Origin: a virus
Taxonomy: Duplodnaviria; Heunggongvirae; Uroviricota; Caudoviricetes
Length of the DNA: 64,000 nt
Direction: 5' to 3' (one strand)
IMG/VR virus record: IMGVR_UViG_2778261087_000003
Shown here: positions 34,246 through 46,329 of the stretch, in pieces
Numbering within the stretch: the first letter of the stretch is position 1
Layout: every line of letters starts with the position of its first letter
Notes under the pieces: generated by a model
Databases searched by the model: none
Seen by the model: only the letters and a program-made list of their open reading frames with translations
What the model was told of the DNA's origin: nothing
Position numbers and translations under genes: made by a program

Positions 34246-35550
34246 CTATATAAACTTAGATATAATATCGTGAATCTGTTGTAGCGGGATTTCTTCCATC
34301 TTACTCTTAATAAGAGAGCGGTTAGATGCTGTCAGTGAAGGCCATTTTGTTTTCCAGGCTAGATATGCTCGCCATGAGTAGCCTGTTTCGTAAGGTTTAT
34401 TCATATAAGTCATTGAGTGTTCAACCGCATGTATGTATTTTTTCTCAAAGTTGGTTCCTTTTACTTCAAATAAACTACCGAAATAAATAAGCCATTTTGC
34501 CAGGTGTTCATACTGCTCCCATGCGCCAGACTCTTTAGTAAGATCTATTTTTTTATCTATTATATCACAAAAAACATTTAATACCTTTTCATCATTCCAG
34601 CTATATCCAGATGATGAAATGGAGGAAATGATATGATAAAAAGAATCCTCTAACTTCAAGAACTCTATTTTATACTCTCTTCCGTTTTTTATTACCGATT
34701 TGATTGAGTGCCTCAATTTGTCTTTTATTTTTTTTGCTTCTGGAATTTTCTTGTTAAGTTTTCTAAAGAAATCAGACACCTCTGTTTTATCTATAACCCT
34801 AATCCCAAAGCAGGAAAAATAGTAATCTTTAATAGGTTGCAATAGTTTCCCTCGGGAAATAAGGAAAATATTGGAGGACATTACGTTGTCCCGTGAAAAT
34901 ACCTTATATTCATTTATAATCGCCTTGAGGTTCGCGTCACTTAGAGAATAGCCAAGAATAACAATAGTGTTTTCATGTAGAACTGTGCTTAGTTTATTTG
35001 AAAAGTAAGAATTACCATTTATAAATCTGAAATAATCCTCGCTAGTAACAACCATATCTGATGGGGAGTCTATAGAGCCGTGAACATGGTAGACTTTAAC
35101 CTCACAATTATATTTTGGAATTGGCAGGCCGGGGGTGATTGTACACGTTCGATTCTCTCCAGCCAGTTTTTCTGCTAACTTGTCATAATTTGTCGTAATT
35201 ACTTTAAATGTGTTTTCTTTGAAAAAGTCTTGAATATATTCAATTGATGGATCAAGTTCGATTGAGGCTATGATTTTCTCAATCTCCTGGTAAATATTTT
35301 TCCCCGAAAGTATAAATTTTAGTGCAATAACCTGAGCTGCCTCTTCAAGGCTAAGGTCTTTTGCTTTTCCATCAGGAAATAATTCCTCTTTGAGTGAGTC
35401 ACCATCCTTCAATAAACCGCACAGTTGCTCCAATAAAGATTGCCAACTTGGGGCTTTATCATCAGAAACAGCCTTTGAAAATCCAGTGCCTGTAAGAAAG
35501 CACAGCCTATGTGTAGCTGCTGCATAGGCAATTTCTATATACTCGCTCAT
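34246..35550 (-). CDS. SIR2-like protein (SIR2_2 family), candidate NAD-dependent anti-phage defence protein
   Basis: 434 aa; N-terminal CFLTGTGFSKAV, TTNYD (N121/D123) and VHGS (H157) motifs typical of defence-type SIR2 domains; markedly AT-rich gene; GGAG SD 7 nt upstream of ATG. Confidence 0.75.
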   Translation of the reverse strand: MSEYIEIAYAAATHRLCFLTGTGFSKAVSDDKAPSWQSLLEQLCGLLKDGDSLKEELFPDGKAKDLSLEEAAQVIALKFILSGKNIYQEIEKIIASIELDPSIEYIQDFFKENTFKVITTNYDKLAEKLAGENRTCTITPGLPIPKYNCEVKVYHVHGSIDSPSDMVVTSEDYFRFINGNSYFSNKLSTVLHENTIVILGYSLSDANLKAIINEYKVFSRDNVMSSNIFLISRGKLLQPIKDYYFSCFGIRVIDKTEVSDFFRKLNKKIPEAKKIKDKLRHSIKSVIKNGREYKIEFLKLEDSFYHIISSISSSGYSWNDEKVLNVFCDIIDKKIDLTKESGAWEQYEHLAKWLIYFGSLFEVKGTNFEKKYIHAVEHSMTYMNKPYETGYSWRAYLAWKTKWPSLTASNRSLIKSKMEEIPLQQIHDIISKFI

Positions 35551-37607: not shown

Positions 37608-38639
37608 CTAATCGCCATCTTCCAGCAGGCGCACCATTGCCCCCGTTTCACTATCCAGGTTACGAATGTAGTTCATGACAATATTTACGTTGGTCCAGCC
37701 ACCAGCTTGCATGATCTCCGGTATTGAAACTCCGGCGCGGGCCATATCTCGCGCGGCACCGACACGGGCACTATGTCCAGACCAGGCCAGGTATCGCTGA
37801 CCAGAGTCATCTTTTGCCCCGTAAATCAATCGGTGAGTTGCTTCAAAAATCCCTTCCAGGGCGCGAGTTGATAGCTGGCTGGTGGATGATGGCGCGGCAA
37901 CACCATTTTTTCTGACGCGGCAAAACAGGTAGTTATTCGGATCATCAGCTACACCAGAGACAGAAATCCATCGCTCAACCAGTTTAGTTACCCCCAGGCT
38001 AAGTGCCTTCTCTACACCAGCGGTGCTAACCAGCGTTTTCGTTCTGCCAATATGGATTAACATCCTCCCACCGTCAGTACGTGAGATATCTTTAACCCTG
38101 ATCCTGGAAATTTCGGCTATACGTAACAGGGTGTTATAAGCAATCCCCAGAAATGCCAGATTACGTATATCCTGGCAGCGATCGCTATTTTCCATGAGTG
38201 AACGAACCTGGTCGAAATCAGTGCGTTCGAACGCCAGCGCCTGTTTTGCACGCTCACCGGCATCAACGTTTTCTTTTCGGATCCGTCGCATGACCAGTGA
38301 AACAGCATTGCTGTCACTTGGTCGTGGCAGACCGGACCGACGATGAAGCATATTTAGCTGGCCCAAATGTTGCTGGATAGTTTTTACTGCCAGACCGCGC
38401 GCCTGAAGATATAGAAGATAATCGCGAACATCTTCAGGTTCTGCGGGAAACCATTTCCGGTTATTCAACTTGCACCATGCCGCCCACGACCGGCAAACGG
38501 ACAGAAGCATTTTCCAGGTATGCTCAGAAAACGCCTGGCGATCCCTGAACATGTCCATCAGGTTCTTGCGAACCTCATCACTCGTTGCATCGACCGGTAA
38601 TGCAGGCAAATTTTGGTGTACGGTCAGTAAATTGGACAT
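37608..38639 (-). CDS. cre: Cre tyrosine recombinase
   Basis: 343 aa, MSNLLTVHQNLPALPVDATSDEVRKNLMDMF...; essentially the P1 Cre sequence with a few substitutions. Confidence 0.98.
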   Translation of the reverse strand: MSNLLTVHQNLPALPVDATSDEVRKNLMDMFRDRQAFSEHTWKMLLSVCRSWAAWCKLNNRKWFPAEPEDVRDYLLYLQARGLAVKTIQQHLGQLNMLHRRSGLPRPSDSNAVSLVMRRIRKENVDAGERAKQALAFERTDFDQVRSLMENSDRCQDIRNLAFLGIAYNTLLRIAEISRIRVKDISRTDGGRMLIHIGRTKTLVSTAGVEKALSLGVTKLVERWISVSGVADDPNNYLFCRVRKNGVAAPSSTSQLSTRALEGIFEATHRLIYGAKDDSGQRYLAWSGHSARVGAARDMARAGVSIPEIMQAGGWTNVNIVMNYIRNLDSETGAMVRLLEDGD

Positions 38640-38646
38640 TTAACAC

Positions 38647-38868
38647 TCAGATAATGGTTTTAAGTAAAGTGTACAGGATCGGCTCTGCCTTTACCTGTTT
38701 ATGGTTCTCGTCATAGAAACGCCAGCGACCGCGCGTGCGTTCTATTTTCTCTTCACCGCGAGATAATGACAGTTGGTAACTATCACGCTCAAACCCTTTT
38801 GCCCGCCAGTAACCACGGTTTTTCTCAAGCTCAAGATGAGTGGACACTTTAGCAGCTGAATATCCCAT
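38647..38868 (-). CDS. hypothetical 73-aa protein immediately upstream of cre
   Basis: GAGGTGA SD 5 nt before ATG; stop 8 nt before the cre start. Confidence 0.4.
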   Translation of the reverse strand: MGYSAAKVSTHLELEKNRGYWRAKGFERDSYQLSLSRGEEKIERTRGRWRFYDENHKQVKAEPILYTLLKTII

Positions 38869-39009
38869 TTTTCACCTCTGATTGATTGGTGGTGCTAAGT
38901 GCGCTACGCGAAATCTGGAGCACTAACACTGCCAACATTTCGCAGATTTTACGTAGCGCAACCTTGATCAAATGATCAAGTGATCACTATTTGACCTGAT
39001 AAGGTATTG

Positions 39010-39029
39010 AACTGTATGGATTTACAGGT
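39010..39029. promoter_or_regulatory. LexA box-like palindrome (aaCTGTatggatttACAGgt)
   Basis: CTGT-N8-ACAG; lies between loxP and cre. Confidence 0.35.
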
Positions 39030-39057
39030 AAATTGATCATGTTCAATAACCCTTAAG

Positions 39058-39091
39058 ATAACTTCGTATAATGTATGCTATACGAAGTTAT
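39058..39091 (+). other. loxP: loxP recombination site
   Basis: Exact ATAACTTCGTATA-ATGTATGC-TATACGAAGTTAT. Confidence 0.97.
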
Positions 39092-39134
39092 TAGGTCTGA
39101 AGAGGAGTTTACGTCCAGCTGCGCATAAAAATCA

Positions 39135-39151
39135 AGAATTATTAGAGCAAT
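39135..39151 (-). promoter_or_regulatory. C1 operator (ATTGCTCTAATAATTCT)
   Basis: Inverted relative to the operator at 39218. Confidence 0.6.
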
Positions 39152-39217
39152 AAATTTTGAGAGAAAAATCCCACTCCACCAGCCAAAAACTGGATTGTTT
39201 TTCATAGTTGTTTGACA

Positions 39218-39234
39218 ATTGCTCTAATAAATTA
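39218..39234 (+). promoter_or_regulatory. C1 operator (ATTGCTCTAATAAATTA) overlapping a TTGACA -35 of the coi/c1 promoter
   Basis: TTGACA at 39212-39217 directly abuts the operator; tatagt -10-like element follows. Confidence 0.7.
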
Positions 39235-39472
39235 TAGTTTTGCCGCCGTTTCGTAATACGACTTTGGATTCACTATTTAATGTGTCTTCAGCGTTGTAGA
39301 GCGGCTCAGAAGGAAATGAGCAAACAGGGAAACCTTATACAACGGCATTACAGCTATGCATTGCTCATCTTACACACAGCGCAATGTTGTTAGATTACCC
39401 CAGCATGGATCATGGGTGAAACAGTAGGTCAGAGCTTCAGGCTCTGTGTTGTCAATACAGTGAGGCATAATT

Positions 39473-39682
39473 ATGGCTTTCATTCCACCAACCATCGACG
39501 ACGTTAGACATTGCTCTAACGCTTTATCTGTAGACCCCGCCGAAACCGACGCTGCCCGCGCCATTGCTGAACACTACTCAAAGATATCCAATCAGGAGTA
39601 CCGCATCACCCAAGACGACCTGGATGATCTCACTGACACAATCGAATATCTCATGGCCACTAACCAGCCAGACTCACAATAA
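39473..39682 (+). CDS. coi: Coi, C1 inactivator
   Basis: 69 aa, MAFIPPTIDDVRHCSNALSVDPAETDAARAI...; directly upstream of c1. Confidence 0.9.
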   Translation: MAFIPPTIDDVRHCSNALSVDPAETDAARAIAEHYSKISNQEYRITQDDLDDLTDTIEYLMATNQPDSQ

Positions 39683-39792: not shown

Positions 39793-40644
39793 ATGATAAA
39801 TTATGTCTACGGCGAACAACTGTACCAGGAGTTCGTCAGCTTCAGGGATCTCTTTCTAAAAAAAGCTGTTGCACGCGCCCAACACGTTGATGCCGCCAGC
39901 GACGGTCGTCCTGTACGCCCGGTTGTCGTTCTGCCGTTCAAAGAAACTGACAGCATTCAGGCTGAAATTGATAAATGGACTTTAATGGCGCGGGAACTGG
40001 AACAGTACCCAGACCTCAATATCCCAAAGACTATTTTATATCCAGTGCCTAACATCCTTCGCGGTGTGCGTAAGGTTACGACTTATCAGACAGAAGCTGT
40101 GAACAGCGTCAACATGACCGCTGGCCGCATTATTCATCTGATTGATAAGGACATTCGCATCCAGAAAAGCGCAGGGATCAATGAGCACAGTGCGAAATAC
40201 ATAGAGAACCTGGAAGCAACAAAAGAGCTAATGAAGCAGTACCCGGAGGATGAAAAATTCCGTATGCGCGTACACGGCTTTAGCGAAACAATGCTGCGCG
40301 TCCATTACATTTCTAGTAGCCCTAACTACAATGATGGTAAATCAGTTAGTTACCATGTGCCGCTATGTGGTGTGTTTATCTGCGATGAAACTCTCCGTGA
40401 TGGAATTATCATCAACGGTGAATTCGAGAAAGCAAAATTTAGCCTTTATGACTCTATAGAACCGATCATCTGCGACCGCTGGCCGCAGGCAAAAATATAT
40501 CGCCTGGCAGATATTGAAAATGTAAAAAAACAAATTGCCATCACTCGCGAAGAGAAAAAGGTCAAATCAGCCGCATCAGTTACGCGCAGCCGTAAAACTA
40601 AGAAGGGGCAGCCAGTAAACGACAACCCCGAAAGCGCGCAATAG
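39793..40644 (+). CDS. c1: C1 repressor of lysis
   Basis: 283 aa, MINYVYGEQLYQEFVSFRDLFLKKAVARAQ...; GGAGGAGGA SD. Confidence 0.97.
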   Translation: MINYVYGEQLYQEFVSFRDLFLKKAVARAQHVDAASDGRPVRPVVVLPFKETDSIQAEIDKWTLMARELEQYPDLNIPKTILYPVPNILRGVRKVTTYQTEAVNSVNMTAGRIIHLIDKDIRIQKSAGINEHSAKYIENLEATKELMKQYPEDEKFRMRVHGFSETMLRVHYISSSPNYNDGKSVSYHVPLCGVFICDETLRDGIIINGEFEKAKFSLYDSIEPIICDRWPQAKIYRLADIENVKKQIAITREEKKVKSAASVTRSRKTKKGQPVNDNPESAQ

Positions 40645-40668: not shown

Positions 40669-42153
40669 TTATTCATTAAGCCATGCCAGAGCTTCATCAA
40701 CCTGCGCTTCGTCTTCGACGCTAAGCACTTCATCCTGGGGAACATAATCCGCCAGCATAGCGAAACAATATGTATCCCAATGGTCTGGTGAGTGCAGGTT
40801 GAGTTTTTTCTTCATATCCTCCTTACTCATCACCTTCCATTGACCGGCGGAGTTAATCCCTACAGGGATTTTCGACGCTTCCTCAATAGTTTCATTACCC
40901 TTATCCAGTCTCATACGACCTGATTTTACGGCCTCTGCGGCTTGAACGTTGGCATAAGCACGTTTATCAAAGTACAGGCTCTTATCTTCACGGCTATGCA
41001 TCTTTTTACCCCAGCGTATACGCTGTACGGTAATACCATAATACTCGTACATCAGATCCGCCGTTGCTTTACCCAGCCCATCGCCGTCTATCGCTATGGT
41101 GATATTTGGGAATCGCTCAGGATTACATTCTGCGAAAATTTTGGCGGCAAGCTGCGTTTCTGTAACGTCTGTGTATTCCAGCATTCGATAGTTGATTACA
41201 CGGCGTTTATTTCTCTGGCCGGACACCATCATGATATTGATAACGGACTTATCCCGTCCCGTACCACCAGCAACGTCCACACATGCAAGCCAGCCCCATC
41301 CTTTGGCAATCTTGACTTTCCGCCGCGTCGCACGTTCAACCTCATCACGTCCAAGAAGGAAGCCATCCTGTGATTTAGGGAATAGTCCGCGTACCTTAAT
41401 CATGTACATAGGGTTATCACGCCCGCCGTACTCCGCCAGCTTCATTTTGATAAATGCTGGCGTTACCAGCGGTGATTCCTCACTGTTAAGCGTGATCGCC
41501 GTATAAACGCCATCAGGGTTACCAGGACGCTTGGCCAGTTTATGGTGAGTATCGTAGAAATAGCCGCTTGGGCGTGTAGGCTGTGACAGTAATAAGATGC
41601 GGTTATCCTGTCCGGTAAGAGCACCGGTGATGATACCGAAAGCTCTATCACTGACACCGGAGGCTTCATCGATAATATACAGAAGATGATCTGCGTGTTC
41701 ACCGGCGAGAGCTTCTTCACTTCCCAGACGAAAGCCCTTCGGTACTACAGTCCATACACCTTTACCAGTAACCTCATAGAAAGCGGTTTCTGTCAGAACA
41801 AAATAATCAGCAAGCCATGGAAAACGGCTGGTGGCAGTAGCCCAGTTTATCTTGATGTACTTGAATATACCGGTCATTACCTGCTGAATTTTGTTCGCAA
41901 CGATAATGGCGCGGGCACCGGGATACATGATTATGAACAACATGATCATGATAGAAGTCATGTCTGATTTCCCGGTACCGTGACCAGACGAAACAGATGT
42001 CTTGCTGCCCTGTTCCTGCACAGACTCAATAATCAGATCCTGCTGCCAGGTAGGTGTTTTGCCGAACAAAACATCAGCGGCAGCAATCCAGTCATAACGA
42101 TATAGCGCCACCAGCTCGCGCCAACGTGGATCCGTTACGCAACTTCTGGCCAT
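40669..42153 (-). CDS. pacB: terminase large subunit PacB
   Basis: 494 aa; Walker A SGHGTGKS, Walker [13 protein letters not shown]-terminal nuclease domain. Confidence 0.95.
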
Positions 42154-43346
42154 TAATCATCATCCCCGTATAGCTTGCGGGTAACTTCTTCGTCTTCCTC
42201 CTCGTCTTCGTCCAGGTCTTGTTCCAGCCATGGGTCGTTTGATACACCTTCAGTATCAACATCTCCATAACCGCCTGTATCAACGATATCGGCGATTTCT
42301 TCCCTACGCTGCTCAATCCACAATGCGGCATCGGCGCGGCGGTTGGCGGCCCGTTCTCGCGCAACTTTGTCCAGATCTTCAAGAGAAGGGCCACCGACGG
42401 CTGTTTGCCTTTCCTCATCATCGGTATTGGTCTTAGGAGCACGCAGATCGGCTTTGATTTGCTCCAGCATCAGGGGCGGCACTTTTCCGCCATGCGCCTC
42501 GATGAATTCAGCTGCTTCCAGCACTGACCAGTTATTTTCACGCTTTCGTTCGTATGCCAGCTTAACAATGCCAGCTTGCCCCATAGATAAAGCGTGCTTT
42601 TCCGCCTCCCGGCTTTCTTTTCGATAGTTATTCCGGATGCTGTAAATGGTGTTGATCAGGCTGCTTATCTGCGCGGAACAGCTGTTTAGCATGCTCGCGA
42701 TACGATATTCAGGCGGAGTCCCTTCATCATCGTCTTTTTGCTGATCGCGCATTTCCTGCACCAGACGAATACACGTATCCCTGGCATTCTCCAGCATAAG
42801 GAGATGAGAAAGAGACTTTTCCAGAAGAGTGGTTTCCAGAACATCGGCCCCGGACCGACGCAACATAGCGCGCGCAGCCTTCCGCGCTTCAACGTTATCT
42901 ATCAGGTAATCGCCAGCTTCGAATTCAAAGCGTTCACCATCATCATCCAGGGTGTCGCGTTCCAGGCGATCACGTAAGGTCCGGTGGGCGCGGGTGATCA
43001 CGTCATGATCATCAGAACGATCATTTATGCGCTTATTTTGGCGCTTCGCATTCTCGACTGCGGCACTGACAACGGCATTAACCCTTTGTTTTTCCGCTAT
43101 TTCAGCCACAATGTGATCACCTGCATGTTGATCATTAGAGTGATCAATGATCATGCTTTTTAGTGGCTTCCTGACTGGCTTATTTGGCTTGCGGCTGTCC
43201 GCTGCCCTGGTGTCTTCTTTGAAGGCACGGAGATAACGACGTGCAGTATTAGGGTTAAGATTAAACTCGGCGGCATACTGTGCGATGGTGTAACCACCAT
43301 CTCGCGCCAGGCGAGCAAAATTCTTCTTGTGATCGTCCCAGGTCAC
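42153..43346 (-). CDS. pacA: terminase small subunit PacA (contains pac)
   Basis: 397 aa, N-terminal HTH ([12 protein letters not shown]), acidic C-terminus; pac hexamer clusters inside the gene. Confidence 0.95.
42995..43153. other. pac: pac packaging site: two clusters of TGATCA(G) hexamers
   Basis: Hexamers at 42995, 43006, ~43019 (degenerate) and 43114, 43129, 43141, 43148; each contains a Dam GATC. Confidence 0.8.
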
Positions 43347-46309: not shown

Positions 46310-46329
46310 TACTGTTTATTCATACAGTA
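46310..46329. promoter_or_regulatory. LexA box (TACTGTTTATTCATACAGTA)
   Basis: Near-consensus SOS box 19 nt upstream of the humD start. Confidence 0.7.

What the first reader, a model, noticed from the sequence alone, without database searches (positions are those of the whole stretch)
38965..39040. TGATCA/Dam-site cluster and a LexA-like palindrome between cre and loxP
Three TGATCA hexamers in 22 bp (38965, 38973, 38981) and a fourth at 39034 resemble the pac hexamers and give four GATC Dam sites in the cre promoter region. Next to them is aaCTGTatggatttACAGgt (39010-39029), which matches the CTGT-N8-ACAG LexA consensus. Together these suggest methylation- and SOS-responsive control of cre or of a promoter reading across loxP.
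Basis: seen in the sequence. Interest (0 to 1): 0.4.

Follow-up and report, generated by a model that had tools for sequence, protein, structure and literature searches.

The report
Known P1 cre/coi control region
This is the already-annotated control region beside loxP in a P1-type phage-plasmid: methylation-sensitive GATC sites in a cre promoter, and a LexA (DNA-damage repressor) site over a promoter that reads across loxP towards the anti-repressor gene coi, so it is real but not new.

Summary
TGATCA starts at 38965, 38973, 38981 and 39034, and AACTGTATGGATTTACAGGT lies at 39010-39029.

The window is a P1-like phage-plasmid, reverse-complemented relative to P1 (window = 39075 - P1 position).
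- P1 (AF234172) lists [quoted passage not shown].
- It also lists promoter P3cre (pR1 of Sternberg 1986), whose -35 is one of the hexamers.
- It lists a "LexA binding site" at 46-65, which is window 39010-39029.
- That site overlaps sigma-70 promoter P2coi, which reads across loxP towards imcA-imcB-coi-c1.
- P7 (AF503408) lists four Dam sites, as in this window.

My tests agree. Three TGATCA within 22 bp occurred in 0 of 3000 shuffles. The LexA box scores in the range of real E. coli boxes, with 0.07 equally good sites expected per window. Its CTGT/ACAG cores are intact in 89 of 89 loxP-anchored relatives. Two of those lineages have Coi only about 55% identical, and they keep the -35/box/-10 layout.

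LexA binding and SOS induction of coi remain predictions; I found no experiment.

Verdict: already known, low interest. Side notes: copy number of the 8-bp TGATCAAN unit varies (2-4), and a conserved inverted repeat spans the pR1 -10.

The parts
38965..38986 (-). Three TGATCA hexamers with an 8-bp period (TGATCAAA/TGATCAAG/TGATCACT). They equal Dam sites 4, 3 and 2 of the P7 annotation and form the -35 region of cre promoter pR1/P3cre.
   Evidence: P1 positions 106-109 and 98-101, and P7 position 90-93, map here by window = 39075 - P1 position. 0 of 3000 shuffles reach this clustering.
38946..38971 (-). Sigma-70 promoter P3cre (pR1 of Sternberg 1986) for cra-cre. The -10 is TAAAAT (38946-38951) and the -35 is TTGATC (38966-38971). 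X03453 also lists a second candidate -35, TTGATC at 38974-38979.
   Evidence: Annotation of AF234172 104-129 and X03453 147-180; sequence read. The spacers are 14 or 22 bp, so the consensus scan does not call it.
39010..39029 (.). LexA (SOS) box AACTGTATGGATTTACAGGT.
   Evidence: Annotated 'LexA binding site' at P1 and P7 positions 46-65. Heterology index 7.84, rank 2 in the window, 0.07 expected per shuffle. Cores intact in 89 of 89 relatives.
39007..39034 (+). Predicted sigma-70 promoter P2coi: -35 TTGAAC (39007-39012), 16-bp spacer, -10 TAAATT (39029-39034). It reads rightward over loxP. The core of the LexA box fills the spacer.
   Evidence: AF234172 41-68 minus strand. The same geometry is kept in JK004 (TTGCGA-16-TATATT) and L229 (TTTACC-16-TATCAT). 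It matches only 8 of 12 consensus positions and was not called by the scan.
39034..39039 (.). Fourth TGATCA, holding Dam site 1 (GATC 39035-39038). It lies directly after the P2coi -10, in the stretch between the -10 and the likely start site.
   Evidence: The site is lost (AATC) in 11 of 89 relatives and in L229.
39058..39091 (.). loxP (ATAACTTCGTATA-ATGTATGC-TATACGAAGTTAT).
   Evidence: lox annotation.
39106..39151 (-). Promoter P4cre (-35 TTGATT at 39130-39135, -10 TAAACT at 39106-39111) with C1 operator Oc1e (39135-39151). It reads leftward across loxP, converging on P2coi.
   Evidence: AF234172 94724-94769 mapped by window = 133875 - P1 position; sequence.
38647..38868 (-). cra, a 73-codon ORF upstream of cre.
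37608..38639 (-). cre recombinase gene (343 aa).
   Evidence: 99.4% identical to P1 Cre.
39473..39682 (+). coi (C1-repressor inactivator, 69 aa), the proposed downstream target of P2coi. imcA and imcB lie upstream of it at about 39280-39507.
39793..40644 (+). c1 repressor gene (283 aa).

Best explanation
This is the two-way regulatory region between cra-cre and loxP of a P1-type phage-plasmid. It contains two separate, already-annotated control devices.

(1) The 8-bp-phased TGATCA triplet on the minus strand forms the -35 region of cre promoter pR1/P3cre. Dam methylation of its GATCs lowers promoter activity. cra-cre expression from pR1 should therefore rise when the DNA is unmethylated or hemimethylated, for example just after infection or replication.

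(2) The CTGT-N8-ACAG palindrome is a LexA operator that fills the spacer between the -35 and -10 of P2coi. P2coi is a plus-strand promoter that fires across loxP, through the C1 operators Oc1e and Oc1d, into imcA-imcB-coi(-c1). In an undamaged lysogen LexA would block P2coi. After DNA damage RecA-stimulated LexA cleavage would free it, Coi would be made, Coi would inactivate C1, and the prophage would move towards lytic growth. That is a LexA-controlled anti-repressor circuit.

Shown here: the sequence features, their exact match to the P1 and P7 annotations, the box quality, its rarity by chance, and its conservation. Taken from the literature: Dam regulation of cre (Sternberg 1986) and Coi inactivating C1 (cited in PMC4713147). 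Inferred only: LexA occupancy, P2coi activity, and read-through to coi.
For: - The window is P1-like. The 901 bp around the site are 97-99% identical to P1, P7, SJ46 and phiW39. The 241-bp core is 100% identical in several P1-like plasmids and is present in about 700 plasmid records.
- AF234172 annotates Dam sites 1-3, P3cre with its -35 at a GATC, the LexA site at 46-65, and P2coi at 41-68 on the opposite strand. P7 annotates four Dam sites and the LexA site. X03453 places both candidate pR1 -35 hexamers on GATC hexamers.
- The LexA box has heterology index 7.84, is second best in the window, and 0.07 such sites are expected by chance. The best box (46310) is the annotated humD SOS box, which shows that the matrix works.
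- In a loxP-anchored, box-blind sample of 89 relatives (72 distinct sequences), CTGTAT and ACAG never vary while flanking columns do. All natural variants keep a heterology index of 5.5-9.1.
- Two diverged lineages keep the layout of a -35 abutting CTGT and a -10 following ACAG, with 9 of 12 promoter matches. In these lineages (JK004/L146 and L229) Cre is 79%, Coi 55% and C1 77-79% identical.
- Ronayne et al. 2016 state that a LexA site overlaps the coi promoter and link SOS to Coi (PMC4713147).
- P1-like JL22 is identical over the 215 bp compared and was induced with mitomycin C (PMC9603915).
Against: - No LexA binding, start-site or reporter data for P2coi were found in the searchable literature.
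- P2coi matches only 8 of 12 consensus positions, and the generic promoter scan calls nothing in 38600-39500.
- A P2coi transcript must pass loxP and two C1-bound operators before it reaches coi, so read-through in a lysogen is uncertain.
- pR1 has unusual -35/-10 spacing (14 or 22 bp).
- Dam site 1 is lost in 11 of 89 relatives, and the number of hexamers varies from 2 to 4. The exact number of GATC sites is therefore not tightly constrained.
- The P7 record calls the box 'in the regulatory region of cre', so even the curators did not agree on its target.
- I could not open Sternberg 1986 or Lobocka 2004. The direction and size of the Dam effect rest on my memory and on the paper's title.
Confidence: 0.8

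Rival explanations
1. The LexA box controls cre rather than coi. Bound LexA would act as a roadblock to leftward transcripts from P4cre, which must cross the box to reach cra-cre, or it would modulate pR1 from upstream. Cre would then rise during SOS.
For: The P7 record labels the site 'LexA binding site in the regulatory region of cre'. P4cre lies on the far side of loxP and reads through the box.
Against: The box centre is about 80 bp upstream of the pR1 start and overlaps neither pR1 hexamer. It sits exactly between the -35 and -10 of an opposite-strand promoter, and that geometry is kept in three lineages. From general knowledge, LexA normally works by occluding a promoter, not by blocking elongation. 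This mechanism could coexist with the main one.
Confidence: 0.2
2. A leftward promoter uses the fourth hexamer as its -35 and the left half of the LexA box as its -10 (TGATCA-17 nt-TACAGT on the minus strand). One promoter toward cre would then be both Dam- and LexA-sensitive.
For: The hexamers and the 17-nt spacing can be read directly. JK004 keeps the same arrangement.
Against: It matches only 7 of 12 consensus positions, weaker than P2coi. In L229 the -10 becomes TACAGG and the GATC is lost. The GATC is lost in 11 of 89 relatives. No such promoter is annotated in P1, P7 or X03453.
Confidence: 0.06
3. The TGATCA cluster is a protein-loading site of the pac type (PacA binding) or a SeqA sequestration site, not a promoter element.
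For: It uses the same hexamer as the pac site, which is the only other TGATCA cluster in the window.
Against: pac has two arms of hexamers about 100 bp apart, with 7-15 bp irregular spacing, inside pacA. Here there is one arm of three at an 8-bp period plus a lone hexamer. The hexamers coincide with the mapped pR1 -35 candidates. Copy number varies between 2 and 4.
Confidence: 0.05
4. Both motifs are chance features of an AT-rich intergenic region and have no function.
For: The bare CTGT-N8-ACAG pattern is only 3 observed against 0.89 expected. Clusters of four GATC arise in 32% of shuffles.
Against: The TGATCA triple arose in 0 of 3000 shuffles. A full 20-mer score this good is expected 0.07 times per window. 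The cores are invariant in 89 of 89 relatives, including lineages whose flanks have diverged.
Confidence: 0.02

Closest known systems
Bacteriophage P1 (AF234172 / NC_005856) features: Dam methylation sites 1-3, P3cre (pR1), LexA binding site 46-65, P2coi
   Same: Same locus and same order. The LexA 20-mer is identical. The window's P2coi -35 and -10 hexamers sit at the annotated P1 positions. Every P1 coordinate maps by window = 39075 - P1 position.
   Different: P1 has TGGTCA in place of the third hexamer, so it has three GATC sites rather than four. The 215 bp compared are 95.3% identical.
Bacteriophage P7 (AF503408) cre regulatory region
   Same: Four annotated Dam sites at 37-40, 90-93, 98-101 and 106-109, and the LexA site at 46-65. 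This is exactly the pattern of the window.
   Different: A few point differences (98.1% identity). P7 assigns the LexA site to cre rather than to a coi promoter.
LexA-controlled anti-repressor switches: N15 AntC (Mardanov & Ravin 2007, cited in PMC11652158); coliphage 186 Tum and the Gifsy phages (from my own knowledge)
   Same: The logic is the same. The phage repressor is not cleaved by RecA. Instead host LexA holds down a small protein that inactivates the repressor, and SOS releases it.
   Different: In those phages LexA control of the anti-repressor was shown by experiment. Here it is a prediction. coi also has a stronger C1-controlled promoter of its own (P1coi/Oc1d), and the LexA promoter lies about 430 bp upstream, across loxP.
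Dam-sensitive promoters with GATC in the -35 or -10, such as IS10 transposase pIN, and the Dam-regulated P1 pac site (Sternberg & Coulby 1990, cited)
   Same: GATC lies inside a promoter hexamer, so methylation state sets activity. The hexamer TGATCA is the same as in pac.
   Different: The pac hexamers control cleavage by pacase, not transcription, and they are arranged in two arms.

Membership tests
E. coli-type LexA (SOS) box | 20-bp palindrome with CTGT-N8-ACAG cores and an AT-rich spacer (consensus TACTGTATATATATACAGTA) | tested here: met
   AACTGTATGGATTTACAGGT matches 14 of 20 consensus positions and both cores are perfect.
E. coli-type LexA (SOS) box | Heterology index within the range of boxes known to bind LexA | tested here: met
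   The index is 7.84, against 2.1-11.7 (median 6.7) for 27 chromosomal boxes. The next best non-annotated site in the window scores 13.06.
E. coli-type LexA (SOS) box | Overlaps the -35/-10 or start site of a promoter | tested here: inconclusive
   The box fills the spacer of the annotated P2coi, and the geometry is conserved in three lineages. P2coi is only a predicted promoter with 8 of 12 matches, and the scan did not call it.
E. coli-type LexA (SOS) box | Conserved in relatives beyond the background level | tested here: met
   The cores are invariant in 89 of 89 loxP-anchored contexts while neighbouring columns vary. The box is retained where Coi is only 55% identical.
E. coli-type LexA (SOS) box | LexA binds in vitro, and the downstream gene is induced by DNA damage in a lexA-dependent way | not testable with these tools
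   No experiment was found. The only indirect hint is mitomycin C induction of JL22.
Dam-regulated promoter (P1 cre pR1) | GATC inside a promoter hexamer | tested here: met
   The -35 TTGATC (38966-38971) and the alternative TTGATC (38974-38979) both contain GATC.
Dam-regulated promoter (P1 cre pR1) | Promoter activity differs between dam+ and dam- hosts | not testable with these tools
   Reported by Sternberg et al. 1986. Only the title and the GenBank notes were accessible.
P1 pac site | Two arms of TGATCA/G hexamers flanking a cleavage region, located inside pacA | tested here: not met
   The real pac site is at about 42968-43153 and has two arms. The cre-side cluster is a single arm of three at an 8-bp period plus one hexamer 53 bp away, and it is intergenic.

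The most novel reading that the evidence does not exclude
The LexA box/P2coi may be a working SOS-to-Coi induction switch shared by all P1-type phage-plasmids, although it has only ever been predicted. It forms one half of a pair of convergent promoters whose predicted start sites lie about 58 bp apart and bracket loxP: LexA-controlled P2coi and C1-controlled P4cre. DNA damage would then both start anti-repression and change transcription through the recombination site. In addition, the slippage-prone 8-bp TGATCAAN unit (2-4 copies in natural isolates) may act as a natural tuning knob for Dam control of cre.
Probability: 0.35. Interest if true: 0.35.

Novelty: already known. Interest (0 to 1): 0.1.

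Why it matters
For a genome scan this is a good calibration point. A reader working from sequence alone recovered two real regulatory devices, placed them to the base, and guessed the right kind of control.

Biologically the elements matter for how P1-type phage-plasmids respond to DNA-damaging antibiotics and set Cre levels. These elements are common carriers of resistance genes in Enterobacteriaceae. The region is already in the curated P1 and P7 records. The one open point is that the LexA-to-coi link still seems to lack a direct experiment.

Tried and rejected
- Papers not held by the library: Lobocka 2004, the EcoSal DNA-methylation review and Sauer & McDermott 2004. Sternberg 1986 is known here only through citations and GenBank notes.
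- Literature searches for an experimental test of LexA at coi or cre found only the Ronayne 2016 statement. One search was a wasted search.
- The generic promoter/terminator scan of 38600-39500 found nothing at its threshold of 9 of 12 matches. It neither supports nor excludes the annotated weak promoters.
- Phage D6 (Dre/rox; Cre 42% identical) was checked as a distant outgroup. It has no GATC cluster, no annotated coi, and only a degenerate CTGT-N8-ACAT with heterology index 13.2. It is uninformative.
- The loxP scan of GTDB genomes was dominated by assembly artefacts. Only 3 loci were P1-like, so the IMG/VR scan supplied the comparative set.
- The third CTGT-N8-ACAG in the window (35490) was rejected as chance, with heterology index 16.4.
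- The larger palindrome I2 (39005-39025 / 39028-39048) was rejected as a conserved element, because it is absent from JK004 and L229.
- Pfam found nothing for Cra or for the extra JK004 gene. ARAGORN found no tRNA in the JK004 locus.

Full report
**What is in the sequence**

TGATCA starts at 38965, 38973, 38981 and 39034. The corresponding GATC sites are at 38966, 38974, 38982 and 39035. The first three hexamers form an exact 8-bp tandem repeat: TGATCAAA TGATCAAG TGATCACT. AACTGTATGGATTTACAGGT lies at 39010-39029 and fits CTGT-N8-ACAG. All coordinates in the finding are correct.

The surrounding genes:

| Feature | Window coordinates | Strand |
|---|---|---|
| cre (343 aa) | 37608-38639 | - |
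| cra-like ORF (73 aa) | 38647-38868 | - |
| loxP | 39058-39091 | . |
| coi (69 aa) | 39473-39682 | + |
| c1 (283 aa) | 39793-40644 | + |
| pacB (494 aa) | 40669-42153 | - |

The elements therefore lie between cra and loxP.

**Is it more than chance?**

- The window has 35 TGATCA against 21.7 expected.
- Three TGATCA within 22 bp, or four within 76 bp, were never seen in 3000 shuffles. The analytic expectation for the triple is about 4e-4.
- GATC clustering alone is weak evidence. Four GATC within 74 bp somewhere in 64 kb arose in 971 of 3000 shuffles.
- The bare CTGT-N8-ACAG pattern is also weak: 3 matches against 0.89 expected.
- A symmetrised 20-bp matrix built from 27 E. coli SOS boxes gives the site a heterology index of 7.84. 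The training boxes range from 2.1 to 11.7, with a median of 6.7.
- That score ranks second in the window. The next site scores 13.06. Shuffled windows give 0.07 sites this good.
- The best site in the window (46310, index 2.99) is the annotated SOS box upstream of humD. This validates the matrix.
- The third pattern match (35490) scores 16.4 and is chance.

**What it is**

The 901 bp around the site are 97-99% identical to P1, P7, SJ46, phiW39 and other punaviruses. The 241-bp core is 100% identical in several P1-like plasmids and occurs in about 700 plasmid records.

The window is the reverse complement of the standard P1 map. Window coordinate = 39075 - P1 position on the cre side of lox. 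On the coi side it is 133875 - P1 position. The curated P1 record maps as follows.

| P1 feature (AF234172) | P1 position | Window coordinates |
|---|---|---|
| Dam methylation site 1 | 37-40 | 39035-39038 |
| Dam methylation site 2 | 98-101 | 38974-38977 |
| Dam methylation site 3 | 106-109 | 38966-38969 |
| Promoter P3cre (= pR1) | 104-129 | 38946-38971, minus strand |
| LexA binding site | 46-65 | 39010-39029 |
| Promoter P2coi | 41-68, opposite strand | 39007-39034, plus strand |

- P3cre has -35 TTGATC and -10 TAAAAT.
- P2coi has -35 TTGAAC, a 16-bp spacer and -10 TAAATT.
- P7 (AF503408) annotates the same LexA site and four Dam sites, including 90-93 (window 38982-38985). That is the pattern seen here.
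- P1 itself has TGGTCA at the third hexamer.
- The original cre record X03453 puts both candidate pR1 -35 hexamers on the GATC hexamers.
- On the other side of loxP, P1 annotates P4cre with C1 operator Oc1e, reading leftward. Beyond it lie P1coi with Oc1d, then imcA, imcB, coi and c1. The window carries the same sequences.
- loxP is thus bracketed by two convergent promoters, P2coi and P4cre. Their predicted start sites are about 58 bp apart.

**Comparative evidence**

To avoid selecting on the box, I scanned IMG/VR and GTDB for loxP alone. I then took the flanks of every hit that had a P1-like context.

- This gave 89 contexts and 72 distinct 399-bp sequences.
- CTGTAT and ACAG are invariant in all of them, while flanking columns vary.
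- The observed box variants are AGCTGT......ATAG......CAGAT, GACTGTATGGATATACAGTA and CCCTGTATGGATTTACAGTA. All keep a heterology index of 5.5-9.1.
- Two diverged lineages are informative: Cronobacter phage JK004 with L146, and L229. Cre is 79% identical, Coi 55% and C1 77-79%. Most of the intergenic sequence has changed and there are indels.
- Both lineages still keep a -35 abutting CTGT and a -10 directly after ACAG: TTGCGA-16-TATATT in JK004 and TTTACC-16-TATCAT in L229. Each matches 9 of 12 consensus positions.
- Both lineages also keep GATC hexamers at the pR1-equivalent position.
- Dam site 1 is less constrained. It is AATC in 11 of 89 contexts and is lost in L229.

**How it most likely works**

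1. The TGATCA triplet is the -35 region of cre promoter pR1. Methylation of its GATCs by host Dam depresses the promoter. This rests on Sternberg et al. [quoted passage not shown] The direction of the effect is from my memory of that paper.
2. The palindrome is a LexA operator occluding P2coi. DNA damage would remove LexA. Transcription would then cross loxP into imcA-imcB-coi, and Coi would inactivate C1.

Ronayne et al. 2016 state this link, citing the P1 genome paper (PMC4713147). The logic matches the LexA-controlled anti-repressor of N15 (cited). The P1-like element JL22 has an identical region and is induced by mitomycin C.

Inferred and untested: LexA binding, P2coi activity (8 of 12 matches, not called), and read-through past two C1 operators.

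**Rivals**

- LexA acts on cre, by blocking P4cre transcripts or modulating pR1. This is the wording of the P7 record. It is possible and could coexist with the main model.
- A weak leftward promoter, TGATCA-17-TACAGT. It matches 7 of 12 positions and is degraded in L229.
- A pac-like or SeqA-binding role for the hexamers. The region fails the two-arm layout of the true pac site at 42968-43153.
- Chance. This is excluded by the shuffles and by conservation.

**Novelty and score**

This is a correct rediscovery, so interest is low. The one open point is that I found no direct experimental test of LexA at this site.

**Side observations**

- The 8-bp unit varies from 2 to 4 copies among natural P1-like elements.
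- An 18-bp-arm inverted repeat (38900-38917 / 38943-38960) spans the pR1 -10. Its arms are conserved in all three lineages while the loop has diverged completely, and there is one compensatory AT-to-TA change.
- Most loxP hits in GTDB assemblies are 454 paired-end linker artefacts.

Noticed in passing
window 38965-38988; loci L005, L006, L007, L008 and IMG/VR loci: The 8-bp unit TGATCAAN in the pR1 -35 region varies in copy number among natural P1-like elements. There are 2 copies in OP242252, CP057263 and 7 of the 96 contexts examined, 3 in most, and 4 in AP027874. Point-mutated third units also occur: TGGTCA in P1 and TAATCA in ON934553. The pattern looks like replication slippage, and it changes the number of Dam sites at the cre promoter.
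   Followed up: partly
window 38900-38917 and 38943-38960: An inverted repeat with 18-nt arms, 89% complementary, and a 25-nt loop. It contains the pR1 -10 in its right arm and lies in the cra leader. The arms are conserved in the JK004/L146 and L229 lineages while the loop has diverged completely, with one two-sided compensatory change (AT to TA at 38913/38947). The minus-strand RNA folds at -32.4 kcal/mol, z = -2.9. It is not annotated in the P1, P7 or X03453 records. It could be a protein-binding palindrome or a hairpin in P4cre-derived transcripts.
   Followed up: partly
window 46310-46329: The strongest LexA box in the window is TACTGTTTATTCATACAGTA, with heterology index 2.99. It lies between humD and hot and corresponds to the annotated LexA site of P7 and P1. 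The best matches (RCS47) have humD next to hot, and the P1 alignment is split into two pieces, so lxr seems to be absent here.
   Followed up: partly
window 42968-43153: The pac site inside pacA has two arms of TGATCA/CGATCA hexamers, at 42968, 42995, 43006, 43019 and at 43114, 43129, 43141, 43148. It is the only other dense TGATCA/GATC cluster in the window.
   Followed up: partly
window 39005-39025 and 39028-39048: A larger imperfect palindrome (TATTGAAC...GTTCAATA; 21-nt arms, 76% complementary) encloses the right half of the LexA box and Dam site 1. It is not conserved in JK004 or L229, so it is probably lineage-specific or chance.
   Followed up: partly
loci L011-L130 (GTDB genome contigs): loxP occurs in assemblies of unrelated bacteria, including Gemmata, Candidatus Paracaedibacter, Legionella tunisiensis and Sediminibacterium. 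64 of the 120 loci carry the 42-mer TCGTATAACTTCGTATAATGTATGCTATACGAAGTTATTACG, which I recognise as the 454 paired-end circularisation linker. These are assembly artefacts, not P1 relatives. The loxP hit inside the portal gene of Lactococcus phage Q33 may have the same cause.
   Followed up: partly
L004 (Cronobacter phage JK004) 1277-2347 and 2580-3286; L229: The JK004 and L229 lineages carry an extra gene between the pR1-like promoter region and cra (356 aa in JK004, no Pfam match). JK004 also has about 700 bp between loxP and coi, against about 380 bp here. That stretch includes a segment that looks tRNA-like, but ARAGORN does not call it.
   Followed up: partly
window 35490-35505: The third CTGT-N8-ACAG match in the window (CTGTAAGAAAGCACAG) scores poorly as a LexA box, with heterology index 16.4. 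It is best read as chance.
   Followed up: yes
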